A DNA stretch of 64,000 bases from Streptomyces thermolineatus. GTDB lineage: Bacteria > Actinomycetota > Actinomycetes > Streptomycetales > Streptomycetaceae. Below the pieces are notes generated by a model. That model saw nothing but the letters and a program-made list of their open reading frames with translations, had not been told where the DNA came from and did not search any database. This document shows positions 7,714-27,180 of this stretch, piece by piece. The translations under genes were made by a program, and so were the position numbers. How positions within the stretch are numbered: the first letter of the stretch is position 1; every line of letters starts with the position of its first letter. The stretch lies in the NCBI RefSeq assembly GCF_039533165.1, contig NZ_BAAATA010000012.1. One strand, written 5' to 3'.

Positions 7714-9852
<2,139 letters not shown>

Positions 9853-9883
9853 CGCCCGCGGGCGCGGCTCCGCCCGCCGGCGG

Positions 9884-9950
9884 CGGGTACGGGGGTACGG
9901 GTGGCGGGTACGGAAGTGCGGGTACGGGGGTGCGGGTACAGGGGTGCGGG
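9884..9950 (+). repeat. G-tract tandem repeat (GGGTACGGG-like units), G-quadruplex-prone
   Basis: At least 9 runs of G3-G5 are separated by 3-4 nt loops (TAC/TGC). The array lies in the glgX-treY intergenic region. Confidence 0.75.
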
Positions 9951-10070
9951 CGCGTCGGTGCCCGCGCCCGGCGCGTCCCGGCCCGGGCGCGCCCCCCGTT
10001 CGGCCGGAAAGCGCCCCCGCCCCGGGCCCCCGGGTGGTGAGCGGCCCGGCCACGGGGTAGTCAGAGCCTC

Positions 10071-12626
10071 ATGACGCCGACGCCCGAGCAGCACCGGCCC
10101 GAACAGCACCGGCCCGAACCGGCCCCCGCCGGAACGGCCCCGGCGGCCCCGGCGGTGCCCACCGCGACGTACCGGCTGCAGCTCCAGCCGGACTTCCCCC
10201 TGTCCGCGGCCGAGGCCGCCGTCCCCCGTCTGGCCGCACTGGGCGTCTCGCACCTGCACCTGTCCCCGGTGCTCCGGGCCTGTCCCGGCTCCACCCACGG
10301 CTACGACGTGGTCGACCACACCCGGATCGGCGAGGAGATCGGCGGCGAGGACGCCCTGCGCTCCCTGGCCCGCACCGCCCGCGCGCACGGCATGGGGCTG
10401 GTCGTGGACGTCGTGCCCAACCACATGGCCGTCCCCGTCCCCGAGCACCTGAGCGAACCGCTGTGGGAGGTGCTGCGCGACGGCCCCGGGTCCCGCTTCG
10501 CCGACTGGTTCGACATCGACTGGGCGGCGCAGGAGGGCCGGCTGCTGCTGCCCGTCCTCGGCGGCCGGCTGGGTCCCGAGCTCGGCGCCCTGGAGACCGG
10601 CACCGCCACCGTCCGGGGCCGGGAGGAGAGGGTGCTGCGCTACCACGACCACGTCTTCCCGCTGCGGCCCGGCACCGAGGACCTGCCCCTGCCCGGGCTG
10701 CTGGAGCACCAGTGGTACCGCCTGGCCTGGTGGCGGCTGGCCCGCACCGAGCTCAACCACCGCCGCTTCTTCACCATCTCCGACCTCATCGGGGTGCGCG
10801 TGGAGGACGAGGCGGTCTTCGCCGCCACCCACGGCAAGCTCCTGGAACTCGTCCGCGACGGGGTCGTGGACGGCCTGCGCGTGGACCACCCCGACGGCCT
10901 CGCCGACCCCCGCGGCTACCTGCGCCGCCTGCACGCGGCCACCGGCGGGCGGTGGACCGTGGTGGAGAAGATCCTCGGCCCCGGCGAACCCCTGCCCGCA
11001 GACTGGCCCTGCGCGGGCACCACCGGCTACGACGCGCTCAAGCACGTCGACGGCCTGTTCGTCGACCCGGCGGGCGCCGCCCGCCTGGCCGAGGTGTGGA
11101 CCGACTTCGCCCGCCTCCCCGCCACCCTGGGCGGCAACTGGGCGGCCACCGTCGCCCGCGCCACCGAGGAGGTCGTCACCGAGGACCTGGCGACCGAGGT
11201 CGCCCGCCTGGTCCGCGCCGCCGACCGCGTCTGCTCGAAGGATCCGCAGCTGGCGGACCACGCCCCGTGGGCGCTGCGCACCGCCGTGCGGGGGCTGCTG
11301 GCGGGCATCCCCGTCTACCGCCCCTACGTCGTCCCCGGCGAGCCCGCCCCCGAACGCGACGCCGCCCTGCTGGAGGCCGCCGCCGGGCCCGCCCGCGCGG
11401 CCTTCGCCGTCCCCGAGGAGGCGCACGCGGTCGACGTCGTGCGCGACCTGGCGCTCGGGCGGCTCGGCCGCGGCCCCGACCACGACGACTTCGCCGTCCG
11501 CTTCGCCCAGGTCTCCTCCGCGCTGCGCGCCAAGGCGGTCGAGGACACCGCCTTCTACCGCTGGCACCCGCTGCTGGGCGTGAACGAGGTCGGCGGCGAC
11601 CCGGCGCGCCCCGGCACCTCCCCGGAGGACTTCCACGCCTTCGCCGCCCGCATCCAGCGCGACTGGCCGGCCACCGCCACGGTGCTGTCCACCCACGACA
11701 CCAAGCGCAGCGCGGACGTGCGCGCCCGGCTGGCCGTGCTGTCCGAGGTGCCCGAACTGTGGCGCGAGTGGCTGGAGAAGGAGTCCGCGGCCGACGGGCG
11801 CGGCAGGCCCGCCGCCCCGGACCGCCAGGTGGAGTACCTGGTGCGGCAGACCGCGATCGGCCTGGGGCACTGCGACGCGGAACGGCTGGTGCCCGCCATG
11901 CTGAAGTCGGTGCGCGAGGCCCGCCTGCGCACCGGCTGGACCACCGCGGACCCCGACTACGAGGCCGCCGTGGAGGCGTTCGTCCGCGGCCTGTGCGAGG
12001 ACGAGGAACAGGTGGCCGCCCTGGCCTCGTTCACCGCCGTCCTGGAACCGTACGCGCACGCCAACTCCCTCGGCGCCGCCCTGGTCCACCTGACGATGCC
12101 CGGCGTCCCCGACCTCTACCAGGGCTCCGAGCGGGAGCTGCTCACCCTCGTGGACCCGGACAACCGACGCCCGGTGGACTTCCCCCGTCCCTTCGACGCC
12201 GACGGGTTCGAACGCTCCTTGTCCCTGGGCCGGGGGCCCACCGGGAACCTGTCCGACCGCAAGCTCCGGCTGACCGCCACCGCCCTGCGGCTGCGCCGAG
12301 AGCACCCCGAGTGGTTCGGCGCCGGAGGCGGCTACGCCCCGCTGCACGCCCGCGGCCCGGCCGCCGAGCACCTGCTCGCCTTCCTCCGCGGCGGCGGGGA
12401 CGGCGAGGGCGGGACGGACGGCGGGGCCGGCGGGGCGATCACCGCCGTCGTCCGGCTCTCCCGCGACCTCGCGCAGTCCGGCGGCTGGCACGACACCGTC
12501 CTGGACCTGCCCAAGGGCCCCTGGACCGACCTGATCACCGGCGCCGTCCACCCCGCCGGCCCCAACCGCGCCTCGGCCCTCTTCGCCGGCGGCCCCGCCG
12601 TCCTCCTCGTGCCCACACCCCGCTGA
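10071..12626 (+). CDS. treY: malto-oligosyltrehalose synthase TreY
   Basis: TYRLQLQPDFPLSAAEAAVPRLAALGVSHLHLSPV and VVDVVPNHMAV are present. The length is 851 aa. The gene sits immediately downstream of glgX as in the treX-treY-treZ arrangement. Confidence 0.9.
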   Translation: MTPTPEQHRPEQHRPEPAPAGTAPAAPAVPTATYRLQLQPDFPLSAAEAAVPRLAALGVSHLHLSPVLRACPGSTHGYDVVDHTRIGEEIGGEDALRSLARTARAHGMGLVVDVVPNHMAVPVPEHLSEPLWEVLRDGPGSRFADWFDIDWAAQEGRLLLPVLGGRLGPELGALETGTATVRGREERVLRYHDHVFPLRPGTEDLPLPGLLEHQWYRLAWWRLARTELNHRRFFTISDLIGVRVEDEAVFAATHGKLLELVRDGVVDGLRVDHPDGLADPRGYLRRLHAATGGRWTVVEKILGPGEPLPADWPCAGTTGYDALKHVDGLFVDPAGAARLAEVWTDFARLPATLGGNWAATVARATEEVVTEDLATEVARLVRAADRVCSKDPQLADHAPWALRTAVRGLLAGIPVYRPYVVPGEPAPERDAALLEAAAGPARAAFAVPEEAHAVDVVRDLALGRLGRGPDHDDFAVRFAQVSSALRAKAVEDTAFYRWHPLLGVNEVGGDPARPGTSPEDFHAFAARIQRDWPATATVLSTHDTKRSADVRARLAVLSEVPELWREWLEKESAADGRGRPAAPDRQVEYLVRQTAIGLGHCDAERLVPAMLKSVREARLRTGWTTADPDYEAAVEAFVRGLCEDEEQVAALASFTAVLEPYAHANSLGAALVHLTMPGVPDLYQGSERELLTLVDPDNRRPVDFPRPFDADGFERSLSLGRGPTGNLSDRKLRLTATALRLRREHPEWFGAGGGYAPLHARGPAAEHLLAFLRGGGDGEGGTDGGAGGAITAVVRLSRDLAQSGGWHDTVLDLPKGPWTDLITGAVHPAGPNRASALFAGGPAVLLVPTPR

Positions 12627-12732
12627 GCCCCGCCCCCCTGCGACGCCGTTCCGGGACCGCCCGGAACGGCGCTACCCTGCTCCCGTCGCGCTGCAGTGGG
12701 GCAGCGGGCGCTGTACGTCGTCGGGGGGTGGC

Positions 12733-14619
12733 GTGGCCGGGTCAGGTATTCGGCCGACCGAGGCGGGGGACCCGCAGTCGTTCGGCCCTTATCGCGTGCT
12801 CGGGCGCCTCGGCTCCGGGGCCATGGGACGGGTGTACCTGGCGTCCTCGCCCGGCGGCCGGCTGGTCGCGGTGAAGACGCTGCTGGCCGAGGCGGCGGTC
12901 GGCGACGCCGACCGGGAGCGGTTCGCCCGCGAGGTGAAGCTCGCCCGCCGGGTCAAGGACATCCACACCGTGGACGTGGTCGCCGCCGACGTCGAGGCGC
13001 GGCCGCCGTGGATGGCCACCGAGTACGTTCCCGCACCCTCGCTCGCCGAACTGGTGCAGCAGGCCGGCACGCTGCCCGCCGGCGCCGTCGAGCGGGTGGC
13101 CGCCGGCGCGGCGGAGGCCCTGCTCTGCCTGCACCGGGCGGAGGTCGTCCACCGGGACGTCAAACCGTCCAACATCCTGCTGCCGCCGGACGGCCCGCGC
13201 CTGATCGACTTCGGCATCTCCCACGCGGCCGACACCACGCGGACCATGCTCACCCTGGGCACCATCGCCTTCACCTCGCCCGAGCAGGCGAGCGGCGAGC
13301 CGAGCACCACGGCCTCGGACGTCTACTCGCTGGGCGCCACACTGTTCCACCTCGCGGTCGGCCGACCGCCCTACACCGAGGTGGGCGACACGCTGCGGCT
13401 GCTGTCGCAGGTCTCGCGGGGGCAGGTGGACCTGTCCGGCCTGCCGCCCGAACTGGAACCGCTGATCCTCCCGTGCCTGAGGACGGACCCGGAGGAACGC
13501 CCGGAGCCCGCGCGGATCGTCGGGCAGCTCGCCGGCGCCCTCGCCGGCGGGCCGGCGTCGCCGGGCGGCACGGGCTGGCTGCCCCCGGCGTGGGCCCGGC
13601 TCGTCGACGAGTACGGGCGCCGCGGGCAGGAGCTGCAAAGGGGCGCGGCCCGGGCGTCGTCGCCGGACGCACCGACCGAGAACCTCAGGAACCGCGGGGC
13701 CTCCGGCTCCCCCACGCGCCCCTACACCCGCCTCCACGACCACCCGCGCCAGGACGAGGAGCAGCAGCGCCCGGACGAGGAGCAGCAGCACCCGGACGGG
13801 GGCCGTCCGCGCCAGGACGGGGGCCGTCCGCGTCCGCAGGGGGTTCGGCCACGCCCCGAGAGGGTGCGTCCGAGCACCGGGACCGGCTCCCCGGCAGGGG
13901 CCGTCCCCGCGGCCGCCGAGGAGACCCGGAGGACCGAGAAGGCGCAGAAGGGCTGGGGAGGCGTTCTCCTCCTCGTCGCGGCCGTCTGGTTCTTCGCCCT
14001 CTACCAGCAGAACCAGGACGACGACCCGTCAGCGGGGGCGGCGAGCACGGGCTCGAGTGCGGGTTCGAGCGCGGGCACGGGCTCGCAGGGGTACTACACG
14101 CCGCCGCCCTCGCCCACCCCCGATCCGGAGGACCTCGCCTTCCGGGCGGTGAGCCCCGGCGACTGCCTCGACGCCTACCAGGACGGCGAGGACTGGAACA
14201 CCGACGTGCCCCGGACCGTCGACTGCGACGCGGCCAGCGCCTACTTCTGGGTGTCCGACACCTCGGACTCCTTCGGCTCGGACTGCCCGACGGGCGCGGG
14301 GCGCAGCTACTGGTCCCACGTGGGGACCACCGGCAGCACCACGCTGTGCGTGCAACGCCAGTTCCGCGAGGGCCAGTGCTTCGTGGTGAAGCAGTCGGAC
14401 AAGGGCGCCGTCCAGGACGGGCTGCTCACGAACGTGTGGAACTGCGACGCGGACACCGTCCCGTCGGGCTACAACCAGATACTCCGGATCACCGGCTACT
14501 ACAAGGCGCCGAAGACGATCCCGCGCGGGTTCTGCTCCGAGGACCAGTACGACCGGACCTCCTACTGGACCTGGGAGGTCGACGACGGCAAGTCCGTCCT
14601 GTGCACCACGGTCGCCTGA
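12733..14619 (+). CDS. Ser/Thr protein kinase with Cys-rich extracellular C-terminal domain
   Basis: The Gly-loop GRLGSGAMGRVYLA, VAVK, HRDVKPSNILL and DFG are present. A Pro/Arg-rich linker and a TM segment (VLLLVAAVWFFALY) follow. The ~200-aa extracytoplasmic domain contains 8 Cys. Confidence 0.8.
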   Translation: MAGSGIRPTEAGDPQSFGPYRVLGRLGSGAMGRVYLASSPGGRLVAVKTLLAEAAVGDADRERFAREVKLARRVKDIHTVDVVAADVEARPPWMATEYVPAPSLAELVQQAGTLPAGAVERVAAGAAEALLCLHRAEVVHRDVKPSNILLPPDGPRLIDFGISHAADTTRTMLTLGTIAFTSPEQASGEPSTTASDVYSLGATLFHLAVGRPPYTEVGDTLRLLSQVSRGQVDLSGLPPELEPLILPCLRTDPEERPEPARIVGQLAGALAGGPASPGGTGWLPPAWARLVDEYGRRGQELQRGAARASSPDAPTENLRNRGASGSPTRPYTRLHDHPRQDEEQQRPDEEQQHPDGGRPRQDGGRPRPQGVRPRPERVRPSTGTGSPAGAVPAAAEETRRTEKAQKGWGGVLLLVAAVWFFALYQQNQDDDPSAGAASTGSSAGSSAGTGSQGYYTPPPSPTPDPEDLAFRAVSPGDCLDAYQDGEDWNTDVPRTVDCDAASAYFWVSDTSDSFGSDCPTGAGRSYWSHVGTTGSTTLCVQRQFREGQCFVVKQSDKGAVQDGLLTNVWNCDADTVPSGYNQILRITGYYKAPKTIPRGFCSEDQYDRTSYWTWEVDDGKSVLCTTVA

Positions 14620-14626
14620 CGGGCCC

Positions 14627-14672
14627 CGGGGCCGTCCGCCCGGGGCCGTCCGGGGCCGTCCGGGGCCGTCCG
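14627..14672. repeat. 10-bp tandem repeat x4 (CCGGGGCCGT)
   Basis: The repeat was read directly immediately after the Ser/Thr kinase stop codon. Confidence 0.8.
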
Positions 14673-14765
14673 GCGTGCCGCCGCGCATGCCCGTCGCGGC
14701 GGCGGGTACGACCCCTCCCGTGCGGGGGCGTCGCGGAAGCGGCCGAGGAGTGAGGGGTTTCGGAA

Positions 14766-15140
14766 GTGATTCGAAAGCTGCAGGCGGTCGCGCTGGACTG
14801 CGCCGACCCGGTACGGCTTGCGGAGTTCTACGCGGACCTGCTCGGCGGCCGGGTGGTCCCGGACCCGGAGGACCCCGGCTGGGTCGAGGTGCACGGGTTC
14901 GAGGGGACGCCGCTGGCCTGCCAGCGGGTGGACGGCTACCGGCCGCCCGAGTGGCCCGGCCAGGAGCGCCCGCAGCAGATCCACCTGGACTTCGACGTGG
15001 ACGATCTCGACGGGGAGGAGAAGCGGGCCCTCGCCCTCGGTGCGACCGTGCTGGAGCGGACGGACCGGATCCGTCCGGAGGCCAACTGGCGGGTCTACGC
15101 GGATCCGGCCGGCCATCCGTTCTGCCTCTGCCTCCACTGA
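14766..15140 (+). CDS. VOC (glyoxalase/bleomycin-resistance) family protein
   Basis: The ORF is 124 aa. AVALDCADPVRLAEFYADLLGG...HLDFDVDDLD is typical of VOC family small proteins. It uses a GTG start. Confidence 0.6.
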   Translation: MIRKLQAVALDCADPVRLAEFYADLLGGRVVPDPEDPGWVEVHGFEGTPLACQRVDGYRPPEWPGQERPQQIHLDFDVDDLDGEEKRALALGATVLERTDRIRPEANWRVYADPAGHPFCLCLH

Positions 15141-15198
15141 GCCTGCTGAGCCCGCCGGGCCGGCCCGCCGGTTCGTCCGCCGCGGGCCGGCCCGGTCC

Positions 15199-15816
15199 CT
15201 ACGACGGCACGGCCGGCTCCTTGCGGGGCCGGTCACCCGCCGCGGACCCGCAGAGCCTGTCCACGTGCATGTCGAGGATCCGCCGGGCCTCGTCCTGGCC
15301 GAGCTGCCCGAGGAGCACCTGGACGGTGAGGCCGTCGGCGAGGGCGAGCAGCGTGCGCGCCTCCAGTTCGGCGTCCACGGCAGTGCCGGCGGCTTCCCGG
15401 ACCAGGCGGGCGAGCAGGCCCTGCACCGCCGGGTAGCCGTCCCGGAGGATCCCCGCCATCGCGGGGGTGACGGCGGCGCGGGCGACGAACGCCAGCCAGA
15501 CCTGCGCCTCCGGGCGCCGCTCGGCGCCGAGCAGGGCGAGGTCCCCGGCCACGCGGGCCAGGGCCGGGGCGGGCGGTGACGGTTCGTCGGCGGCCGCGCG
15601 CACCCTGGCGGCGAACGCCTCGCTGACGTGCGCCAGGGCGAGGGCGAGCATCTCGTCCTTGGTGCGGAAGCTGCGCTGGACGGCCCCCATGGACATCCCG
15701 GCCTGCCGGGCGACGTCGCGCAGGGTGACGCCCTCCAGTCCGTGCTCGTCGGCCAGCGCGTACACCGCCTCGATCACCCGGCGCCGTCGCTGTTCGTGGT
15801 CCACCTGCTTGGGCAT
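15199..15816 (-). CDS. TetR family transcriptional regulator
   Basis: The N-terminal HTH reads RRRVIEAVYALADEHGLEGVTLRDVARQAGMSMGAVQRSFRTKDEML. The gene is divergent from the amidase gene. Confidence 0.85.
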   Translation of the reverse strand: MPKQVDHEQRRRRVIEAVYALADEHGLEGVTLRDVARQAGMSMGAVQRSFRTKDEMLALALAHVSEAFAARVRAAADEPSPPAPALARVAGDLALLGAERRPEAQVWLAFVARAAVTPAMAGILRDGYPAVQGLLARLVREAAGTAVDAELEARTLLALADGLTVQVLLGQLGQDEARRILDMHVDRLCGSAAGDRPRKEPAVPS

Positions 15817-15855
15817 GCCGCCTCCACCGCCCGCCGCTCCGGTCCCGTTCTTTTC

Positions 15856-15904
15856 CGATGCAAGTGCATCGGATACCAGTGTACGATCCGATGCACTCGC
15901 ATCG
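15856..15904. promoter_or_regulatory. two tandem palindromic operator-like sites in TetR/amidase divergent intergenic region
   Basis: CGATGCA-AG-TGCATCG at 15856..15871 is a perfect 7-bp inverted repeat. CGATGCA-CT-CGCATCG at 15889..15904 is a near-identical second site. Both lie between the TetR start (15816, minus) and the amidase GTG (15927). Confidence 0.55.
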
Positions 15905-15926
15905 GAAAACGGAGGGCCGCGTCACC

Positions 15927-17381
15927 GTGGGAACCGAACTCTGGAAGTGGACCGCCGCCGAACTGGCCGCCGCGGTCGCCTGCGGGGAGATCAGCGCCGC
16001 AGAGGTCGTCGAGAGCCACCTCGCCCGGATCGCCGAGGTCAACCCGGTGGTCAACGCCGTGACGCAGACGCTCGCCGACACCGCGCGCCGCGATGCCGAG
16101 GACCTCGACCGGCGGCGCGCGGCCGGCGAGCGGCCGGGCCCGCTGGCCGGCGTGCCGTTCACCGTGAAGGAGAACATCGGCATCGGCGGGGTGCCGACCA
16201 CGCACGGCCTGGCGCACTTCCGGGGGATGCGGGCCGGGGAGGACGCCCCGCCGGTGGCCCGGCTGCGGGCGGCGGGCGCGATCCCCGTCGGGCACAGCAA
16301 CATGCCCGACCTGACCGTGGGCGGGATGCACCCGCGCAGCGAACTGTTCGGGGAGACGCGCAACCCGTGGCACCCCGGCCGCACCCCCGGCGGCAGCAGC
16401 GGCGGCGACGGGGCCGCCGTGGCCTCCGGCATGGCACCGCTGGGACTGGGCAACGACTCGGGCGGCTCGATCCGCATCCCGGCCGCCTTCTGCGGTACGG
16501 CCGGGCTGAAACCCACGTACGGCCGCTTCCCCTCCGACCATCGCATCGGCCCGGACGACCCGGCCCTGGCCTCCCAGTTCGTGCCGGTGGACGGCCCCCT
16601 CGCCCGCACGGTCGGCGACCTGCGCCTGGCCTACGAGGCACTGGCCGGAACGGACCCGCGCGACCCGCGCGCCGTCCCCGTGCCGCTGTACGGGCCGGAA
16701 GCCGGGACGCGGCCGAGGGTGGCGGTGGTGGCCGACCCCGGCGGCCAGGGGGTGCACCCCGGCGTGCGGGCGGCGGTCGCCGCCGCGGCGGACGCCCTCC
16801 GGGACGCCGGGTACGAGGTGGAGGAGATCCCCGACGTCCCCCGCATGGCGGAGACCCTCGCGGCGTACGGCCACATGGTCATGACGGAGTTCGCGCTCGC
16901 CTGGCCGCGGATCCGCACGGTACTGCCCGAAAGCAGCCGCGCCTACATCGAGATGTCGATGGAACGGACCCCGCCCGTCGAACTCCCCGAGTACCTGCGG
17001 CTGACCGGTGTCCGCCTGGGCCTCCAGCGGGACTGGGCCCGCCTCTTCCAGCGGTACCGGCTGGTCCTCGGGCCGGTGTTCACCGAGCCGCCGGTCGAAC
17101 CGGGCCTGGAGTCCGGCAGCACGGACGGGCACGAGCGGGTGACCCGCGCGATGCGGCTGTGCACCGCGACCAGCTTCGTCGGGCTTCCGGCGGTGGCCGT
17201 CCCCGGCGGGGTCCTCGACGGGCTGCCGCAGGGGGTGCAGCTGATCGGGCCGATGTACAGGGAGGACCTGTGCCTGGCCGGCGCGGAGGCCGTCGAACGG
17301 CGGATCGGCGTGCTGACACCCGTCGAGCCCCGGCCGACCCCCGTCGAGCCCCGGTCCGGCGGCACTGCCCTGCTCGCGTGA
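15927..17381 (+). CDS. amidase (amidase-signature family)
   Basis: The signature GGSSGGDGAAVASGMAPLGLGNDSGGSIRIPAAFCG is present. The GTG at 15927 has a GGAGGG RBS 10 nt upstream. Confidence 0.8.
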   Translation: MGTELWKWTAAELAAAVACGEISAAEVVESHLARIAEVNPVVNAVTQTLADTARRDAEDLDRRRAAGERPGPLAGVPFTVKENIGIGGVPTTHGLAHFRGMRAGEDAPPVARLRAAGAIPVGHSNMPDLTVGGMHPRSELFGETRNPWHPGRTPGGSSGGDGAAVASGMAPLGLGNDSGGSIRIPAAFCGTAGLKPTYGRFPSDHRIGPDDPALASQFVPVDGPLARTVGDLRLAYEALAGTDPRDPRAVPVPLYGPEAGTRPRVAVVADPGGQGVHPGVRAAVAAAADALRDAGYEVEEIPDVPRMAETLAAYGHMVMTEFALAWPRIRTVLPESSRAYIEMSMERTPPVELPEYLRLTGVRLGLQRDWARLFQRYRLVLGPVFTEPPVEPGLESGSTDGHERVTRAMRLCTATSFVGLPAVAVPGGVLDGLPQGVQLIGPMYREDLCLAGAEAVERRIGVLTPVEPRPTPVEPRSGGTALLA

Positions 17382-17429
17382 CCGCCCCCCGGCTCGCGTG
17401 ACCGCCCCCCGCTCGCGTGACCGCCCTCC
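17372..17429. repeat. 19-bp tandem direct repeat x3 (GCTCGCGTGACCGCCCCCC) overlapping amidase stop codon
   Basis: Units lie at 17372..17390, 17392..17410 and 17411..17429. The third unit is slightly diverged (CCCTCC). The first unit contains the amidase TGA. Confidence 0.8.
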
Positions 17430-17447
17430 GGCCGGTGCCGCCCCGCC

Positions 17448-17690
17448 TCACCCCGGTGCGGGCGCCTCCGGCTCCAGCAACCGGGGAACCTCCCGCCGCA
17501 GCAGGTCGACGAAGGCGCGCACCGCGCCCCGGAACTCCACCCGGGCGAACGCGACCGCGTCCCGCCGCCAGGGCTCCCGGAACGACACCGCCCGGGCCGC
17601 CCGGCGGGCCTGCACCGCGCTGCGCACGGCGAGTTCGGCGTTCGGCAGGAGGAGCACGGAACCGGACGGGTGCTGGGCGTCCACCTGGTC
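17448..17690 (-). pseudogene. LysR-family regulator C-terminal fragment (remnant)
   Basis: The minus-strand translation reads PSGSVLLLPNAELAVRSAVQARRAARAVSFREPWRRDAVAFARVEFRGAVRAFVDLLRRE. This fits the LysR C-terminal co-inducer domain ending. No N-terminal HTH is present. The upstream frame overlaps other genes. Confidence 0.4.
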
Positions 17691-17873
17691 GGACCGCACG
17701 TGTCGGAGATGATCACGCAGAGCCAGCTGATCGTCGGCCGGCATGCCGAGCCCGCCGACGTGGCCCGGCACATCCACCCCCACCCCACGCTCTCCGAGGC
17801 CGTCGGCGAGGCGTTCCTCAGCCTGGCCGGCCGCGGACTCCACCAGCAGGCGCCCCGGCTCAGCGCTCCGTGA
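17640..17873 (+). pseudogene. dihydrolipoamide dehydrogenase (pyridine nucleotide-disulfide oxidoreductase) C-terminal fragment
   Basis: The ORF 17670..17873 translation VHLVGPHVSEMITQSQLIVGRHAEPADVARHIHPHPTLSEAVGEAF matches the dimerisation-domain C-terminus (HAHPTLSEA motif) of Lpd-type flavoproteins. The rest of the ~460-aa protein is absent. Confidence 0.5.
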
Positions 17874-18084
17874 GCGGCGCGGCGGACGCGGCGAAGGCGA
17901 CGAACGCCGTCCACGCCTCCGGGGAGAACGCGAGCGTCCCGCCCTCCCGGTCCTTGGAGTCCCGCACGCGGACGGCACCGGGGGCCACGGCGACCTCCAC
18001 GCACTCCCCGCCGTCGCCGCCGCTGTAACTGCTCTTGAACCAGGTCGGTTCAAGGACTGCGCCTTCGGACCGATCGTTGCTCAC
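17860..18084 (-). CDS. DUF397 domain protein
   Basis: The ORF is 74 aa. WFKSSYSGGDGGECVEVAV...VRVRDSKDREGGTLAFSPEAWTAF is the classic DUF397 pattern. Confidence 0.8.
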   Translation of the reverse strand: MSNDRSEGAVLEPTWFKSSYSGGDGGECVEVAVAPGAVRVRDSKDREGGTLAFSPEAWTAFVAFAASAAPLTER

Positions 18085-18896
18085 AGTTCCCCCAATACCT
18101 GCTCGATGAGGCTCACCGACTCTTCCGGGCTGAGGGCCTGGGCGCGCAGGATCCCGTAGCGCTGCATGAGCACACTCACCTCGTCCTGCTCGGAGATCAG
18201 GAAACTGCCGCGCTGGCCCTCGACGTAGGCCAGGTTACGGCGATCCTGGGTTTCCAGCAGCACCATCGGGCCTTCCAGTCCGGCATGCGTCTCCCGACAG
18301 GTCGGCATGACCTGGAGGGAGACGTTGCGCATCCGCGAGCATTCCAGCAGACGCCTCAACTGCCCCTCCATGACGGCGGAACCACCGATCGGTCGTCGGA
18401 CCACCACCTCCTCGATCACGAAACCCAGTACCGGGCGCGGCGTACGCGTCAGCAGAGTCTGGCGGTCGAGTCGCGCCGCAACGCGCCGCTCCACCTCGTC
18501 GTCGTCGGGCGGAGGACAACTGCCGCCGACCACCGCCCGGGCGTACTCCTCGGTCTGGAGCACGCCCGGGACGGTCTGGTTGCTGTACAAATACATGCTC
18601 ACCGCGTCCGCCTCCAGCATCGCGAAGTCCTGGAACCAGGACGGGTAGCGCGCCTGGGCGAGGAAGGATGCGCCGATCCTGAGCACGCCGCGTGCGTCCA
18701 GTGCCTCGTCGGCCTGGTCCACGAAGCCCTGCTGGGGGATCCGCCGGCCCTGCTCGACGGCGGCCACCATCGCCTCCGAGTACCCCACCCGCTCGCCGAG
18801 TTCGGCGCGGGAGAGCCCCGCACGCCCTCTGAGCAGCTTCAGTTGGCTGCCGAAGTACTTGAGTGTCGTCGAGCCCGCGTCGTTCCTGTTTCCCAT
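18081..18896 (-). CDS. XRE-family HTH regulator with DUF5753 C-terminal domain (WhiJ-like)
   Basis: From the ATG at 18896 the HTH reads LKYFGSQLKLLRGRAGLSRAELGERVGYSEAMVAAVEQGRRIP. A DUF5753-like C-terminal domain follows. There is a 4-bp overlap with the downstream DUF397 gene. Confidence 0.8.
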   Translation of the reverse strand: MGNRNDAGSTTLKYFGSQLKLLRGRAGLSRAELGERVGYSEAMVAAVEQGRRIPQQGFVDQADEALDARGVLRIGASFLAQARYPSWFQDFAMLEADAVSMYLYSNQTVPGVLQTEEYARAVVGGSCPPPDDDEVERRVAARLDRQTLLTRTPRPVLGFVIEEVVVRRPIGGSAVMEGQLRRLLECSRMRNVSLQVMPTCRETHAGLEGPMVLLETQDRRNLAYVEGQRGSFLISEQDEVSVLMQRYGILRAQALSPEESVSLIEQVLGEL

Positions 18897-19050
18897 TCCT
18901 GTCACCCCGTTCGCCGTCGTGTGTGTCCTCCAACTCCGCACGGGCGCAGGGGGTGACGGCGAGCGGCGCGTACCGGTCGGCCGTCACCGCAGACAGCGGT
19001 GCGGGTCCTCGGGAGAGACCTGGCCAGGGTAGGCGGCCTTACGGATCTTT

Positions 19051-19587
19051 GTGCTGATGAAGACTGACATTCCCTCTTCCGTGACTCCGTGTTTCGCCAT
19101 CACCTCCAGCGAGCGGGCGTTCCCCCGGCATCCGTACTCCGTGCGGGCCGCACGGGACCACGTCGCCGCCGTGGTCTCCCGGCTCGCCCCACCCCCGCCG
19201 GGACCTCCGGCTCCTCCGGCCGGTGACGACCGGCTGGACGACGTCCTGGTGTGCGTCTCGGAGCTGGCCACCAACGCCCTGGTCCACGGCGCCCCGCCGG
19301 ACTGCGGTTTCCTGCTGCGGATCACCCTGGTCCGCACGTCCGCCACCGGGGCGGCGACCCTGCGCGTCGAGGTGCACGACGACGGGAAGGACCTGCCGGA
19401 GCAGGCCCCGGACCGGCTCTCTGTCTCCGCCCCCGGCCGGGAGGGCGTGCCCGGGACCGGCGGCCGCGGACTGCTGCTCGTCTCCGCCCTCGCCGACGCC
19501 TGGGGCGTCTCCCGCTTCCGCACCGGCCCGGGCAAGGCGGTCTGGGCCGAGTTCCGGTTCCCCCGGGGCGCGGGCGGAGAGCACTGA
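19051..19587 (+). CDS. ATP-binding protein (HATPase_c, anti-sigma-factor/Ser kinase-like) divergent from WhiJ-like regulator
   Basis: LDDVLVCVSELATNALVHG (N-box) and GTGGRGLLLVSALADAWGV (G-box) are present. The arrangement is the typical third member of XRE/DUF397/ATPase loci. Confidence 0.75.
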   Translation: MLMKTDIPSSVTPCFAITSSERAFPRHPYSVRAARDHVAAVVSRLAPPPPGPPAPPAGDDRLDDVLVCVSELATNALVHGAPPDCGFLLRITLVRTSATGAATLRVEVHDDGKDLPEQAPDRLSVSAPGREGVPGTGGRGLLLVSALADAWGVSRFRTGPGKAVWAEFRFPRGAGGEH

Positions 19588-19921
19588 GGCGGGCACCCGG
19601 CGCGCGGCCCGGGAGCGGCGGACGTTGTCGGACCCGTCTGCGACGGTGCGCGCGGGGCGGCGCGAGGAGCCGTCCGGATCGGCACCGGGGGCATGATGAC
19701 AAATCGCGACCACGGCTGGGCGGGTGTGACCTGGAAGGACCGGCAGGACCACGAGGTCGTCCGGCGGCGTCTCGACCACGGGGCCGATCCGGAGGGATGG
19801 GGCGCTGGGGCCTGTTGTGAATGTCCTGATCGCGCGGGGTCCGGCGCCCACTGGGGGTGTCATTGTCAGTGGTGCTGTGCATGATCGGCGCGTCAGCTTT
19901 TCGCGGAGGCAGGGAAGCACC

Positions 19922-20263
19922 ATGCCGATCACAAACCAGCAGGTAACGGAGCACGCGTTCCTGCGGCAGATGTACGACGACTCGTACTTCCCCGATCGTG
20001 TGGTCGATCAGGGGAAGGCGATCCTGCTGCGGCTGTGCGAACGCATCGAGGCCAAGCAGCCGCTGGACCTGGAGAGCCTGTACGCACTCACCCGGGCTGC
20101 GACGGAGGAGTTCAACCTGCTGGACAGGGAGTTCGTGGCGGCCGGGAGCGAGATCGAGACGGTGGCGCGGGAGTGGATCTGTGACGAGTTTTGCTTTGTC
20201 GCGTCGGCATACGGGTTCATGGACGCGGATGCGGAGGAGCTGACCTCCGGCCGGGACTGGTGA
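19922..20263 (+). CDS. hypothetical small protein (113 aa), markedly lower GC than surroundings
   Basis: The protein reads MPITNQQVTEHAFLRQMYDDSYFPDRVVDQGKAILLRLCERIEAKQPLDLESLYALTRAATEEFNLLDREFVAAGSEIETVAREWICDEFCFVASAYGFMDADAEELTSGRDW. A GGAGGCAGGG RBS is present. Composition is roughly 60% GC against >70% for the neighbours. Confidence 0.5.
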   Translation: MPITNQQVTEHAFLRQMYDDSYFPDRVVDQGKAILLRLCERIEAKQPLDLESLYALTRAATEEFNLLDREFVAAGSEIETVAREWICDEFCFVASAYGFMDADAEELTSGRDW

Positions 20264-20269
20264 ACGACG

Positions 20270-21202
20270 ACGGGAAGGCCGCCTCCGATCAGAGCCATTC
20301 GTTGAGGGCTGCGATCAGCACGGTCGCCTCGTGGCGGACGGCGAGCTTGTCGTAGCGGGTGGCCACGGCACGGTGCCTCTTGAGGCGGTTGTCCCGCGCT
20401 CGGCCGCGTGGCGCTGGCGGTGGTCGGCCGGGGCGAAGCGCGGCGGCCGACCACGGCGGGAGCCGAGTTTCAGGCGGTTGCGCGCCTGGTCGGCCTTGTC
20501 CGGGATGGTGCAGCGGATCCCGCGGCGGCGCAGGTAGGCGCGGTTCCTTCGGGAGGCGTACGCCTTGTCAGCACGCACTCGATCGGGACGGACACGTGGC
20601 CGGCCCGATGCGAGGCACGCGGACCTTTGCCGGCACGGGTTCGAACTGCGGTGAGTCCCCGCGCTGTCCTGCCGTGATCACGATCGGCATGGGCTTCCGG
20701 CCCTGCTCGAAGACCAGGTGCAGCTTGGTGGTGAACCCGCCGCGCGAGCGTCCCGGCCCGTGATCACGGGGTTCGGTGAAGACGCCACCTGGTGGTTCCT
20801 TCTGCAGGTCGCCCTGGCTGCGGGCTCCGGCCGCGTGCTGGTGGGCACGACGGACCGTGGAGTCGACGCTCGGGTCCCGGGTGATCGCCCCCTCCGCGTC
20901 AGCCGGGACCTGAAGCCGGGTGAGGACCCTGTGCCGGGTTCCGTCCCGCTGCCACCGGCGGAACAGGTCATAGACCCGGCCCCGCGGTCCGTGCTCGACG
21001 GGGACGCCCCGCCACGGAACACCGGTCCGGACCCGGAACCGTATGCCGTCGATCAGACGCCGCCGGGGCCGGACGGGCGGCCGCCCTGCCCCGGCGCCCT
21101 TCGGCAACAACGGCTCCAGCACCGCCCACTGCTCGTCCGTGGGATCTCCCCGACCCATGAACCTGATCATCCACAGCCCGAGAGCCGCTTTCGATGCACG
21201 GC
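20270..21202 (-). mobile_element. IS5-family (IS427/DUF4096-type) insertion sequence, ~0.93 kb, transposase disrupted
   Basis: The transposase N-terminus reads MIRFMGRGDPTDEQWAVLEPLLPKGAGAGRPPVRPRRRLIDGIRFRVRTGVPWRGVPVEHGPRGRVYDLFRRWQRDG. The DDE region reads DKAYASRRNRAYLRRRGIRCTIPDK. The canonical C-terminus RDNRLKRHRAVATRYDKLAVRHEATVLIAAINEWL* is only readable in a third frame ending at 20290. Boundaries are inferred from the transposase start and stop. TIRs and target duplication were not verified. Confidence 0.7.
20290..21170 (-). pseudogene. IS5-family transposase with frame disruptions
   Basis: The coding potential is split over three frames. ORF 20568..21170 is the N-terminal part. 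ORF 20315..20578 is the central part. A further frame carries the C-terminal NRLKRHRAVATRYDK...NEWL. The last shift looks like a 1-bp deletion within the conserved INRLK codons. The first shift could be a natural orfA/orfB frameshift site. Confidence 0.6.
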
Positions 21203-22231
21203 CTAGTAGTAACGCAGCAGCGCGCCCTGGCCGCGATGGTCGGAGTACTGCGGGGCCAGGGTGCCGGCGCCGCCGGCCGACTGGCGGGCGAGCGCGTAGT
21301 CGACGGTGACCTGGTTGTAGACGGCGTAGGTCTTCACAAACAGGAAGTCGATCCGGGTACTGGCGTGGGTCCAGTGATTGGCGTCCAGGCAGTTGTAGTC
21401 GCCCCCGCAAGCACGGTACATCGCGTCCTTCCAGCCCAGGTTCGCGACGGTGGTGCCGCAGGTACCGGGGTAGTCGACGTTGGTGCCCTTGTACCAGCAC
21501 TCCCAGGCGACCTGCCCGGAGGAGTTGAGGGTGCCGTCGAGGTGGTTCCAGTCCCCCGCCATGATCTGCATCGACGCCGAGCCGAGGCCCTGGACCGCCG
21601 AGCTGATGCTCTTCGTGTTCTCCCACGCGCAGTCGGCGTCGGGGTTGGACGCGTTGTCCGCGACGACGGGCAGGTGGACGGATGCCACGTTGATGAACTT
21701 GCTCGTGTCGAGGTCGTCCTTGAGGCGCAGCACCAATGCGTACCAGTTGCTCAGAGTGGTGCAGTCCGCGTCCGCGTTCGCCCGCGTCTTGAGCTGGACC
21801 TCCTGCATGGTGCCGCCGACGTACGACAGCCGACCGGTCCGGTACGCGATGGCGGATCCGCCGGTCTCCGCCGTCTCGTAGCAGTGGTAGTCGAGCCCCC
21901 CGGTGCTGTTCTGCAGGTCGGTCACGAACTGCTGGCAGCTCGGGACGCCCAGCGACGCCGTGCCGGCCTCCTGCAGCGTCACGATGTCCGGCACGTACGC
22001 GACCCGGGCCGGGTCGGTGATGTAGGCGATGAACTCGCGGTAGTCGGTGCAGGGGCTGGTGCCGCAGCTGCTCGAATCGGTGCGCATGTGGTGCGTGTTG
22101 AGGTTCCAGACCTGCAGCCGGTCGGTCGGCGCGCCTGTCTGGCCGGCGGCGTACGCGGTCCCGGCGTGCACCGTCACGATGCCGAGCGCGCCCATCAGTG
22201 CCGCGACGATGAAGGTCAGCAGAGACCTCAT
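21203..22231 (-). CDS. secreted endonuclease/exonuclease/phosphatase (EEP) family protein
   Basis: The signal peptide is MRSLLTFIVAALMGALGIVTVHAGTAYAAG. LQVWNLNTHHM, IVTLQE, MAGDWNHLD and SDHRG are EEP catalytic motifs. The 5' end of the gene is low in GC. The stop codon lies directly at the IS boundary. Confidence 0.65.
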   Translation of the reverse strand: MRSLLTFIVAALMGALGIVTVHAGTAYAAGQTGAPTDRLQVWNLNTHHMRTDSSSCGTSPCTDYREFIAYITDPARVAYVPDIVTLQEAGTASLGVPSCQQFVTDLQNSTGGLDYHCYETAETGGSAIAYRTGRLSYVGGTMQEVQLKTRANADADCTTLSNWYALVLRLKDDLDTSKFINVASVHLPVVADNASNPDADCAWENTKSISSAVQGLGSASMQIMAGDWNHLDGTLNSSGQVAWECWYKGTNVDYPGTCGTTVANLGWKDAMYRACGGDYNCLDANHWTHASTRIDFLFVKTYAVYNQVTVDYALARQSAGGAGTLAPQYSDHRGQGALLRYY

Positions 22232-22574
22232 GGACCGCTTGGCCCGTCGTACGCGTCGGTCCGCCGGCACTGCCGGGGCGACCGCCGCCACCCCTCTGAA
22301 TGCCTTGTTCATGTCAATGTTCACGAGCGGTCAGTCTGATGGACCGTCAAAGACAATGGCAACAGGACTGGCACGTTCCGCGCAAAGCCTGTCGGCGGGG
22401 CGAGCGGGGGTGACCGGGTGCCCCGCTCGTGCACGGCCCACGGCCGACCCGGCAGTCGTACCGGCGGCCGTAGCCCCGTCGAAGGCGCCGCTGGAAGCCG
22501 GTTTCCGGGCATGGGCCCCGAGGCACGGCGGAAACCGGTTGGCAGAGGCCGGAGTCCACGGCCAGGATCACGGT

Positions 22575-23177
22575 ATGACGGTTTTCCTGGCGACCGGCCG
22601 GATGGTGCTGCGCCCGTTCACCGGGGCCGACGCGGACCACTTGGCCGCCCTCGACGGCGACCCGGAGGTCATGCGGTTCCTCGACGGGGGCGGCCCGACC
22701 TCCCCCGAGGCGGTTCGGGCGCACGTCCTGCCCCGGCTGATGTCCCGCCACGCGTGGCCCGCGGTCCACGGCTACTGGGCCGCCGAGGCCGGGGGTGGCG
22801 AGGGGAGCGGCGGAGGCGCCGGCCGCGCCGGGGAGTTCCTGGGCTGGTTCGAGTTCCGGCCGCTGGACGAGGACGGCGGCGGCGGGACGGTCGAGCTCGG
22901 GTACCGGCTGCGCCGGGCGGCCTGGGGGCTCGGACTGGCCACCGAGGGGGCCCGGGCCCTGCTGCACAAGGGATTCACCGAGCTCGGCGTGGAGCGCGTG
23001 ACGGCCACCACGATGGCGGTCAACGTCGGCTCCCGCCGGGTGATGGAGAAGGCCGGGCTGCGGTACGTGCGCACCTTCCACCAGGAGTGGCCGCACCCGC
23101 TGCCGGGATCCGAGCACGGCGAGGTGGAGTACGCGCTGACCGCGCAGGAGTGGCGGCGGGAGGCCCCGCCCGCCTGA
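22575..23177 (+). CDS. GNAT family N-acetyltransferase (RimJ/RimL-like)
   Basis: MTVFLATGRMVLRPFTGADADHLAALDGDPEVMRFL is typical of the Acetyltransf_3 N-terminus. The acetyl-CoA motif RRAAWGLGLATEGARALL is present. Confidence 0.75.
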   Translation: MTVFLATGRMVLRPFTGADADHLAALDGDPEVMRFLDGGGPTSPEAVRAHVLPRLMSRHAWPAVHGYWAAEAGGGEGSGGGAGRAGEFLGWFEFRPLDEDGGGGTVELGYRLRRAAWGLGLATEGARALLHKGFTELGVERVTATTMAVNVGSRRVMEKAGLRYVRTFHQEWPHPLPGSEHGEVEYALTAQEWRREAPPA

Positions 23178-23343
23178 ACGCCGGAGCCGGCGAACCGCGG
23201 CGGCAAACCATAAAGGGGAAAGGGCGAAACAGACAGGTCTTCTACGCTTTGCCACCCCGGTCCCGCCGATGCGCCGGCAGGGCGGCCACCCGGCCGCCGT
23301 TGCTCAACGGTTGCTCAATTCCCTTGGGAATCAAGGAAGCAGC

Positions 23344-25500: not shown

Positions 25501-25584
25501 TCGGCGGTCCGGCGGACCGCCGGACCGCGCGCCCCGCCCGGCAGTGAACCGCTCGCCGGGCAGCGCACCGAAGGGAGCGCCCCG

Positions 25585-27132: not shown

Positions 27133-27180
27133 CGCGGCCGGACGGCCCGGCGCGCACCGTGGCGGTCCGGGCGGCGGCCG

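What the first reader, a model, noticed from the sequence alone, without database searches (positions are those of the whole stretch)
17372..17873. Junction scar: 19-bp tandem triplication overlapping the amidase stop, followed by LysR and Lpd gene fragments
GCTCGCGTGACCGCCCCCC occurs three times in tandem from 17372, with the first copy providing the amidase TGA. Immediately downstream the minus strand encodes only the last ~75 aa of a LysR-type regulator (co-inducer domain ending ...AVRAFVDLLRRE). The plus strand encodes only the last ~65 aa of a dihydrolipoamide-dehydrogenase-type flavoprotein (HIHPHPTLSEA). Neither has its N-terminal part. This looks like the footprint of illegitimate recombination or deletion that brought the TetR-amidase block next to the WhiJ-like locus.
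Basis: seen in the sequence. Interest (0 to 1): 0.55.

Follow-up and report, generated by a model that had tools for sequence, protein, structure and literature searches.

The report
Decayed LysR–Lpd gene pair remnant
This is about 400 bases of dead-gene debris, what is left of a regulator gene and a dihydrolipoyl dehydrogenase gene that sit intact between the trehalose genes treY and treZ in other Streptomyces, with an ordinary short tandem repeat beside it.

Summary
GCTCGCGTGACCGCCCCCC occurs exactly at 17372 and 17392, separated by one spacer G, and with one mismatch at 17411. A degenerate fourth copy follows. The amidase stop lies in copy 1. The plus strand at 17663-17849 encodes the last 62 codons of a dihydrolipoyl dehydrogenase.

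The minus-strand LysR remnant is not "the last 75 aa". It is two short pieces fused in frame: about aa 64-86 (linker helix) and aa 263-293 plus the C-terminal tail.

Five Streptomyces genomes carry the intact divergent LysR<->Lpd pair at the same place, between treY and treZ. At least ten other lineages carry independently eroded versions with different breakpoints. The window lost about 1.5 kb (both 5' halves plus the shared promoter region) and then about 0.5 kb inside LysR.

The TetR-amidase block on the left and the WhiJ-like block on the right are separate lineage-specific insertions. The deletion did not join them.

The repeat is identical in a second strain, so it is unlikely to be an assembly artefact. 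It shows no terminator, Rfam match or unusual fold. About 20 comparable arrays occur in this window.

Verdict: ordinary pseudogene decay plus slippage repeats. Interest is low.

The parts
10071..12626 (+). treY (malto-oligosyltrehalose synthase). Conserved left anchor of the syntenic interval. Its 3' end diverges from other species after about 12400-12500.
   Evidence: Pfam Alpha-amylase. blastn to treY of L001-L012: window 10110-12393.
12733..17381 (.). Lineage-specific block inserted between treY and the LysR remnant: Ser/Thr kinase (12733-14619 +), glyoxalase-like (14766-15140 +), TetR (15199-15816 -) and amidase (15858/15891-17381 +).
   Evidence: Pfam. No homologues in the treY-treZ interval of 11 other Streptomyces loci (tblastn). 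The TetR-amidase cassette is found in an unrelated context in L090, with homology to window 15236-17330 only.
17312..17353 (+). 21-bp tandem duplication inside the amidase 3' end (TPVEPRP / TPVEPRS). It starts the non-native C-terminal tail.
   Evidence: the repeat finder D2. TRF 17315-17354. Homologous amidases end at ...TPV(E/D)PRP*. Homology to L090 ends at 17330.
17368..17447 (+). 19/20-bp tandem array: copies at 17372, 17392 and 17411, plus a degenerate copy at 17430-17447. The amidase stop TGA at 17379-17381 lies in copy 1.
   Evidence: Identical in strain GCA_042734795.1.
17448..17573 (-). LysR remnant, piece B: C-terminal end (L008 LysR aa 263-293 plus tail) with its stop codon at 17448-17450.
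   Evidence: BLASTP E 2e-6. tblastn against the L002 LysR fragment, E 8e-10. Coding-type GC1/2/3 of 0.88/0.55/0.95.
17574..17650 (-). LysR remnant, piece A: linker helix (aa ~64-86), fused in frame to piece B. The internal-deletion junction is at about 17574-17589.
   Evidence: blastn 17590-17650 against L007/L008/L010 LysR, 90% over 61 nt. tblastn 17645-17574.
17651..17662 (.). 12-nt junction that replaces about 1,530 nt of the ancestral pair: LysR aa 1-63, the divergent promoter region, and Lpd aa 1-417.
   Evidence: In L008, coordinates 8482-10011 lie between the two matched segments.
17663..17849 (+). Lpd (dihydrolipoyl dehydrogenase paralogue) remnant: the last 62 codons, aa 418-479, part of the dimerisation domain including HxHPTLSE.
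   Evidence: Pfam PF02852 E 5e-12. TIGR01350 positions 402-460. 80-87% nucleotide identity to intact orthologues.
17850..17873 (+). Read-through tail (APRLSAP*). The native stop found in most orthologues (…LHQQ*) is absent. This is the right edge of homology to other genomes, and the ORF runs 14 nt into the convergent DUF397 gene.
   Evidence: Alignment of 12 loci. Homology ends at 17849-17858. DUF397 ORF 17860..18084.
17860..27180 (.). Lineage-specific DNA to the right of the remnant: DUF397, XRE/DUF5753 and HATPase_c_2 (the WhiJ-like trio), DUF5713, broken IS5-family transposase, Exo_endo_phos protein and others. It takes the place of the FHA/DUF1707 gene found in the other loci examined.
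   Evidence: Pfam. No FHA, M14 or SSI homologues in the window.
27181..29079 (+). treZ (malto-oligosyltrehalose trehalohydrolase). Conserved right anchor.
   Evidence: Pfam Alpha-amylase + DUF3459. blastn and tblastn to treZ of the other loci.

Best explanation
The interval 17448-17873 is a non-functional relic of an ancestral gene pair: a LysR-type regulator transcribed divergently from a dihydrolipoyl dehydrogenase paralogue. In Streptomyces this pair lies between treY and treZ.

In the lineage of this window (Streptomyces thermolineatus or a close relative), one deletion of about 1.5 kb removed the HTH of LysR, the shared promoter region and the first 417 codons of Lpd. A second deletion of about 0.5 kb removed most of the LysR effector domain. 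What survives is the outer 3' ends of both genes. The likely reason is that deletions reaching further would damage neighbouring genes (inference).

Separately, a kinase/glyoxalase/TetR/amidase block was inserted between treY and the LysR 3' end. A WhiJ-like, IS-containing block replaced the DNA to the right of the Lpd stop.

The roughly 110 nt between the native end of the amidase and the LysR stop is junction filler made mostly of short tandem duplications: 21 bp x2, then 19/20 bp x3-4. These are most simply explained by replication slippage in GC-rich DNA (inference). They shifted the amidase stop about 17 codons downstream into the first repeat copy. No function is indicated for the repeat or for either remnant.
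For: The intact pair sits at the same syntenic position. L008-L012 carry glgX-treY-LysR(316 aa, HTH_1+LysR_substrate)<->Lpd(479 aa)-...-treZ. The L008 Lpd scores 428.7 bits on TIGR01350, above the cutoff of 408.8. The window has glgX, treY and treZ in the same order, with the remnant between them.

Breakpoints are mapped. Window 17590-17650 corresponds to L008 8421-8481, and window 17663-17849 corresponds to L008 10012-10198. LysR piece B is shown.

Decay happened repeatedly and independently:
- L007 has both genes frameshifted.
- L092 keeps LysR 218-293 and Lpd 36-479.
- L091 keeps LysR 219-292 and Lpd 359-479.
- L002 keeps LysR 147-306 and Lpd 418-479.
- L001, L003, L005 and L006 keep only Lpd from about aa 404-416 to the end.
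- Metagenome contigs L094-L097 have further different breakpoints.
- In treY and treZ trees, lineages with remnants are interspersed with lineages that have the intact pair.

Constraint is relaxed. Over the 62 shared codons, pooled pN/pS is 0.12 among intact copies and 0.27 among remnants. Against the consensus of the intact copies, dN/dS is 0.50 for L003, 0.37 for L005 and 0.15 for the window. In the window the conserved W-D is replaced by R-H, and the native stop is lost. The start codon is not conserved among remnants.

Flanking blocks are lineage-specific. An IS remnant lies on the right.

The repeat is the same in a second strain. About 20 TRF arrays score >=70 in the 64 kb. A different 10-nt array at 14639 varies by 30 nt between the two strains. 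No terminator, Rfam hit or unusual fold was found.
Against: The order and mechanism of the events are inferred, not observed. No target-site duplication, inverted repeat or clear microhomology marks any junction.

The Lpd remnants of L001 and L002 have low dN/dS against the intact consensus (0.07-0.08). The window's remnant keeps a coding-type GC3 of 0.94. Both facts fit recent loss, but they do not by themselves exclude residual selection.

In six lineages the Lpd-side breakpoint falls within 36 nt (L008 coordinates 9977-10012). I attribute this mainly to ascertainment, because my protein search returned only short ORFs similar in extent to the query. The less biased DNA-pattern scan gave breakpoints at aa ~365-377. 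That sample is small, only 5 contigs.
Confidence: 0.85

Rival explanations
1. One reading: a single illegitimate recombination or deletion fused a TetR-amidase region to the WhiJ-like locus, clipping an unrelated LysR gene and an unrelated Lpd gene at the junction.
For: Both remnants lack their 5' parts. They sit between two functionally unrelated blocks, and repeats are present at one edge.
Against: The two remnants belong to one ancestral divergent pair, and their ancestral neighbours are treY and FHA/treZ, not amidase or WhiJ. The remnant still lies between the two blocks. Other species have the same kind of remnant with no amidase or WhiJ genes nearby. At least two deletions are needed for LysR alone.
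Confidence: 0.07
2. The Lpd C-terminal piece is kept by selection as a small protein (for example a mimic of the E3 dimer interface) or as a DNA/RNA element. This would explain why many Streptomyces lineages keep just the last 60-120 codons.
For: 49 short stand-alone ORFs of this type were found, several of them on Mb-scale contigs. Six lineages have breakpoints within 36 nt of each other. L001 and L002 have low dN/dS against the intact consensus. The HxHPTLSE motif is preserved.
Against: Start codons and N-termini are not conserved. The stop is lost in the window and in L001. L003, L005 and L006 have dN/dS of 0.29-0.50 against the intact consensus, with radical changes such as H->P, M->P and L->P. 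P0033 has an 11-aa internal deletion. Downstream genes differ in identity and orientation, so no shared promoter role is plausible. No Rfam hit was found. Breakpoints in the pattern-based sample are spread out. The protein search was biased towards short ORFs.
Confidence: 0.05
3. The tandem array is a functional element, such as a terminator for the convergent amidase and LysR transcripts, or an array of protein-binding sites.
For: It sits directly after a stop codon. A 13-nt imperfect inverted repeat (17358-17370 / 17430-17442) brackets it. It is unchanged between two strains.
Against: No terminator-like site was found. Folding is no better than shuffles (z -0.74 and +1.32). The unit is found nowhere else in the window or in 11 related loci. 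The closest amidase cassette, L090, has unrelated sequence there. The likely TetR operator palindromes are in the TetR-amidase intergenic region instead.
Confidence: 0.05
4. The triplication is an assembly artefact.
For: Short GC-rich tandem repeats are prone to errors in some assemblies.
Against: An independent assembly of a different strain (GCA_042734795.1; 26 SNPs and 2 indels in 8.6 kb) has the identical 200-nt region, base for base. At about 60 nt the array is far shorter than a read.
Confidence: 0.03

Closest known systems
Bacterial pseudogene remnants produced by deletional decay (deletional bias of bacterial genomes; own knowledge, e.g. Mira, Ochman & Moran 2001)
   Same: Loss of function is followed by stepwise deletions. 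The remnants keep ancestral codon-position composition and show raised dN/dS. Different lineages show different stages, from frameshift only through to small 3' stubs.
   Different: Nothing essential differs. It is a clear example because the intact, frameshifted and eroded states are all available at one syntenic site.
LysR-type transcriptional regulator divergently transcribed from its target gene (classical LTTR architecture; own knowledge)
   Same: In L008-L012 the intact orthologues have HTH_1 + LysR_substrate, lie head to head with the Lpd gene, and have about 90-145 nt between their start codons.
   Different: The window keeps only about 20 codons of the linker helix and about 40 C-terminal codons. 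There is no HTH, no effector domain and no promoter region.
Dihydrolipoyl dehydrogenase (E3; TIGR01350; Pfam Pyr_redox_2 + Pyr_redox_dim)
   Same: The last 62 codons match the end of the dimerisation domain, including the HxHPTLSE motif that carries the active-site His-Glu pair in E3 enzymes (role of the motif from own knowledge; match).
   Different: There is no FAD/NAD-binding domain and no CxxxxC redox centre. The native stop is lost. It cannot be an enzyme.
Short tandem repeats or minisatellites generated by replication slippage in high-GC actinomycete DNA
   Same: The copies are head to tail with a 19-20 nt period and 3-4 copies. There are many similar arrays in the same window, and another array varies between strains.
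   Different: This array overlaps a stop codon and, together with a 21-bp duplication, gives the amidase a non-native C-terminal tail of about 17 aa.

Membership tests
Dihydrolipoyl dehydrogenase (TIGR01350 / PF07992 + PF02852) | N-terminal FAD/NAD(P)-binding Pyr_redox_2 domain with a redox-active CxxxxC | tested here: not met
   No Lpd-like sequence lies upstream of 17663 in any frame. The L008 orthologue has the domain (GGTCLHRGCIPSK; PF07992 E 3e-58).
Dihydrolipoyl dehydrogenase (TIGR01350 / PF07992 + PF02852) | C-terminal dimerisation domain (PF02852) with the HxxPTLSE motif | tested here: inconclusive
   Only profile positions 62-109 of 110 are present (E 5e-12). The motif HIHPHPTLSE is present. 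About the first half of the domain is missing.
Dihydrolipoyl dehydrogenase (TIGR01350 / PF07992 + PF02852) | Whole-protein score above the NCBIfam equivalog cutoff (408.8 bits) | tested here: not met
   The window fragment scores 55.5 bits. The intact L008 orthologue scores 428.7 bits.
LysR-type transcriptional regulator | N-terminal winged HTH (PF00126) | tested here: not met
   Absent. The remnant starts at about aa 64, after the HTH, which spans aa 3-62 in L008.
LysR-type transcriptional regulator | LysR_substrate effector domain (PF03466) | tested here: not met
   No Pfam hit at E<=10. Only aa 263-293 align. Aa ~87-262 are deleted.
LysR-type transcriptional regulator | Orthology to an intact LysR at the same locus in relatives | tested here: met
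   90% nucleotide identity over 61 nt to LysR of L007, L008 and L010. The position between treY and Lpd is syntenic.
Tandem repeat (slippage-type minisatellite) | At least 2 head-to-tail copies, more than expected by chance | tested here: met
   TRF score 112, 4.1 copies. 0 of 100 shuffles gave 3 matches.
Tandem repeat (slippage-type minisatellite) | Copy-number variation between strains | tested here: not met
   The array is identical in the one other strain available. A different array at 14639 does vary.
Mobile-element insertion scar | Target-site duplication or terminal inverted repeats flanking the inserted block | tested here: not met
   No significant match between 12300-12800 and 17300-17480 (best is a 10-mer, E 0.065). 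The repeat unit is absent elsewhere.
Intrinsic terminator | GC-rich hairpin followed by a T-run, or a fold more stable than shuffles | tested here: not met
   No terminator-like sites in 17000-18300. z-scores -0.74 and +1.32.

The most novel reading that the evidence does not exclude
The last roughly 60-120 codons of this Lpd paralogue are retained non-randomly across many independent Streptomyces lineages. Either the stub encodes a micro-protein that mimics the E3 dimer interface (it carries the HxHPTLSE active-site loop), or the DNA holds an element needed by whatever lies downstream. On this reading the window's 17663-17873 ORF would be a degenerate member of a recurrent 'domain-stub' gene.
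Probability: 0.04. Interest if true: 0.6.

Novelty: new member of a known kind. Interest (0 to 1): 0.15.

Why it matters
It matters mainly for annotation and for reconstructing the history of this locus.

Annotation. Neither the 83-aa minus-strand ORF (called as a gene in GCA_042734795.1) nor the short 'dihydrolipoyl dehydrogenase' ORFs called in several Streptomyces genomes are likely to be functional genes. They would be better flagged as pseudogene fragments.

History. The locus shows the treY-treZ interval of Streptomyces as a site of repeated gene loss and insertion. The intact, frameshifted and eroded states of one LysR-Lpd pair are all available at one syntenic position. That would make a convenient small data set for studying deletion spectra in high-GC actinomycetes.

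No new mechanism or system is implied.

Tried and rejected
- **Pfam on the minus-strand ORF and its C-terminal 80 and 115 aa.** No LysR hit, even at E<=10. LysR identity could only be shown through orthologues.
- **Genome-contig scan with an alignment of the fragments.** Only five Streptomyces loci came back. They turned out to be the useful intact ones.
- **Context of the second-closest amidase, P0053.** No DNA was available.
- **Target-site duplication or shared sequence** between the treY end (12300-12800) and the amidase/LysR junction. Nothing significant.
- **Terminator scan, RNA folding of both strands, and Rfam at E<=1.** All negative.
- **A deletion hotspot at Lpd aa 404-418.** I considered this because six lineages have breakpoints within 36 nt. 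I set it aside as mainly an ascertainment effect. The word-based protein search returned only ORFs of 126 aa or less. L091, L092 and the metagenome contigs have breakpoints at aa 36, 359, ~365-377 and elsewhere.
- **The long minus-strand ORF 17448..18053 (201 aa) as a real gene.** Rejected. Beyond 17650 it is antisense to the Lpd remnant and has a non-coding codon-position GC pattern, GC1 0.94 and GC3 0.82.
Full report
**1. What is in the sequence**

The window is 74.5% G+C. The unit GCTCGCGTGACCGCCCCCC is exact at 17372-17390 and 17392-17410, with one extra G at 17391. It recurs with one mismatch at 17411-17429. Tandem Repeats Finder extends the array to 17368-17444: period 20, 4.1 copies, score 112. 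This is because 17430-17447 is a degenerate fourth copy. No other copy exists in the window at up to 3 mismatches. None of 100 shuffles gave three matches at up to 2 mismatches.

The amidase ORF (15858..17381; Pfam Amidase, E 1e-96) ends with TGA at 17379-17381, inside copy 1. Just upstream, a 21-bp tandem duplication (17312-17353) encodes TPVEPRP/TPVEPRS.

**2. The two gene fragments**

On the plus strand, 17670-17870 matches Pfam Pyr_redox_dim positions 62-109 of 110 (E 5e-12). 17664-17849 matches the dihydrolipoyl dehydrogenase equivalog TIGR01350 at positions 402-460 of 461.

The minus-strand ORF gives no Pfam hit at all. Comparison with intact orthologues found later shows that it is LysR-derived, but in two pieces fused in frame:
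- 17590-17650 corresponds to aa ~64-86, the linker helix just after the HTH (90% nucleotide identity over 61 nt).
- 17451-17573 corresponds to aa 263-293 plus the tail (BLASTP E 2e-6; E 8e-10 against L002).

Most of the effector domain, aa ~87-262, is missing. The description 'last ~75 aa of the co-inducer domain' is therefore not accurate.

**3. Where the fragments come from**

A protein search with the Lpd fragment returned 49 hits. All were short (47-126 aa) stand-alone ORFs, mostly from Streptomyces. Their genomic contexts put them directly after glgX-treY and before treZ.

The window has the same frame: glgX at 7714-9852, treY at 10071-12626 and treZ at 27181-29079. glgX/treX, treY and treZ are the known α-glucan-to-trehalose genes of Streptomyces. 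In S. venezuelae, treY (SVEN_5896) and treZ (SVEN_5890) are likewise separated by several genes (PMC5042117).

Five genomes (L008-L012) carry the intact arrangement: treY, then a 316-aa LysR (HTH_1 + LysR_substrate) on the minus strand, then head to head with it a 479-aa Lpd, then variable M14 peptidase and SSI genes, an FHA/DUF1707 gene, and treZ. The L008 Lpd scores 428.7 bits on TIGR01350, above the cutoff of 408.8.

Against L008, the window keeps 8421-8481 (LysR) and 10012-10198 (Lpd). The 1,530 nt in between are replaced by 12 nt at 17651-17662. Those 1,530 nt comprise LysR aa 1-63, the divergent promoter region and Lpd aa 1-417. Because the two genes are divergent, a single internal deletion explains why both fragments lack their N-terminal parts. 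A second deletion removed LysR aa ~87-262. Of about 2.5 kb, 402 nt remain.

**4. The decay is recurrent, not peculiar to this genome**

Other lineages show other stages:

| Locus | LysR retained | Lpd retained |
|---|---|---|
| L007 | full length, disrupted | full length, disrupted |
| L092 | aa 218-293 | aa 36-479, frameshifted |
| L091 | aa 219-292 | aa 359-479 |
| L002 | aa 147-306 | aa 418-479 |
| L001, L003, L005, L006 | none | from about aa 404-416 |

Sister comparisons (L091/L001, L092/L002/L003) show that neither member derives from the other by one deletion.

In neighbour-joining trees of treY and treZ, lineages with remnants are interspersed with lineages that have the intact pair. 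For example, L006 is sister to L009, and L005 is sister to L010+L011. That implies at least four or five independent losses.

A DNA-pattern scan of metagenome contigs is less biased about breakpoints. It gave five contigs. One was intact over the part present, and four were eroded, with breakpoints or frameshifts at aa ~365-377 and internal deletions.

**5. Are the stubs under selection?**

Over the 62 shared codons, pooled pN/pS is 0.12 among intact genes and 0.27 among remnants. Against the consensus of the intact copies, dN/dS is:
- L003: 0.50
- L005: 0.37
- L006: 0.29
- L007 (frameshifted): 0.30
- the window: 0.15
- L001 and L002: 0.07-0.08

Values between the intact level and 1 are what is expected when part of the divergence predates the loss. 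The remnants have different or no start codons. One (P0033) has an 11-aa internal deletion. The window and L001 have lost the native stop. In the window the conserved G-W-D-A-E-P has become G-R-H-A-E-P.

The remnants keep coding-type codon-position G+C (0.82/0.44/0.94 for the Lpd piece). This fits relatively recent loss.

Six lineages have Lpd-side breakpoints within 36 nt. I attribute this chiefly to ascertainment, because the word-based search returned only ORFs about as long as my query. It remains the one feature I cannot fully explain.

**6. The flanks**

None of the window's kinase, glyoxalase, TetR, amidase, DUF397, XRE or ATPase proteins has a homologue in the treY-treZ interval of the other loci.

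The nearest TetR-amidase cassette is L090, whose amidase is 86% identical. It sits in an unrelated context, and its DNA homology to the window stops at 17330. That is the native end of the amidase, since homologues end ...TPV(E/D)PRP*. So 17331-17447 is junction DNA made almost entirely of the two tandem duplications. It gives the amidase a non-native tail of about 17 residues (the duplicated TPVEPRS followed by GGTALLA).

To the right, homology to other genomes ends at 17849-17858. A WhiJ-like trio follows (DUF397, XRE/DUF5753, HATPase_c_2), then DUF5713, broken IS5-family transposase pieces and other genes, up to treZ. The FHA/DUF1707 gene conserved in the other loci examined is absent.

The remnant is therefore a small island of ancestral DNA between two lineage-specific insertions. 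The deletion did not bring the two blocks together. No target-site duplication or terminal repeat marks the left block, so how it inserted is unknown.

**7. The repeat**

The amidase is 100% identical to one annotated in Streptomyces thermolineatus. A second strain, GCA_042734795.1, differs from the window by 26 SNPs and 2 indels over 8.6 kb. It is identical to the window from 16579 to 22084, including all repeat copies. This argues strongly against an assembly artefact.

The same comparison shows a different tandem array, a 10-nt unit at 14639 just after the kinase stop, differing by 30 nt between the strains. The window contains about 20 separate TRF arrays scoring >=70. Such arrays are commonplace and dynamic in this genome.

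The 19-mer array has no terminator-like site, folds no better than shuffles and has no Rfam match. A 13-nt imperfect inverted repeat brackets it, but this has no detectable consequence for folding.

**8. Verdict**

This is ordinary pseudogene decay of a divergent LysR-Lpd pair in a variable interval between treY and treZ, bordered by slippage-type tandem duplications. Novelty and interest are low. The practical value is correcting annotation of the small ORFs called here and in other genomes.

Noticed in passing
window 15851-15909: The TetR-amidase intergenic region holds two copies of a 20-nt palindromic motif, TCCGATGCAAGTGCATCGGA and TCCGATGCACTCGCATCGGA, 33 nt apart. Together they form a 24-nt inverted repeat. 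These are probably the TetR operators.
   Followed up: partly
window 14639 (just after the kinase stop at 14619): The second strain (GCA_042734795.1) has 30 extra nucleotides here, three extra copies of a 10-nt unit CCGGGGCCG(C/T). This is strain-level copy-number variation of a short tandem repeat.
   Followed up: partly
window 13746-13819: An in-frame 21-bp x3.5 repeat inside the Ser/Thr kinase gene encodes the (Q/E)-rich RQDEEQQRPDEEQQHPDGGRPRQDGGRP stretch. It carries 5 of the 26 SNPs between the two strains.
   Followed up: no
window 12393-12626: treY is 851 aa here against 784-805 aa in the other loci. Nucleotide homology to other species fades after about 12400-12500, so the 3' end may have been remodelled when the neighbouring block was inserted. 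A hairpin, GCCGTTCCGGG-ACCG-CCCGGAACGGC, follows the stop.
   Followed up: partly
window 20315-21626: Broken IS5-family transposase: DUF4096 and DDE_Tnp_1_2 pieces in different frames and ORFs. It marks the right-hand lineage-specific block as containing mobile DNA.
   Followed up: no
L007 3711-4861; L091 4371-4592; L092 4988-5213: Three unrelated lineages have a LysR discontinuity at nearly the same residue: aa 224-230 interrupted in L007, and remnants starting at aa 219 and 218 in L091 and L092. This could be a second local breakpoint cluster or a coincidence.
   Followed up: no
L001 4848-5879 and L091 3219-4226: In this clade a roughly 1-kb ORF with weak P450 similarity lies between treY and the Lpd stub, where LysR would be. 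It is another lineage-specific insertion in the same interval.
   Followed up: no
L005 and L006, between the treY stop and the Lpd stub: Long perfect GC-rich hairpins sit directly against the Lpd stub, for example GCCGGGACCCGCCGGGAG-ACCG-CTCCCGGCGGGTCCCGGC in L005. They are probably treY terminators, seen in the alignment.
   Followed up: no
window 17358-17370 / 17430-17442: A 13-nt imperfect inverted repeat (85% complementary) brackets the three good repeat copies. With a single copy it would have formed a stem with a loop of about 20 nt.
   Followed up: partly
window 17448-17699 (-): The annotation of GCA_042734795.1 calls an 83-aa hypothetical gene here. It is the chimeric LysR remnant and is almost certainly not a real gene.
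   Followed up: yes
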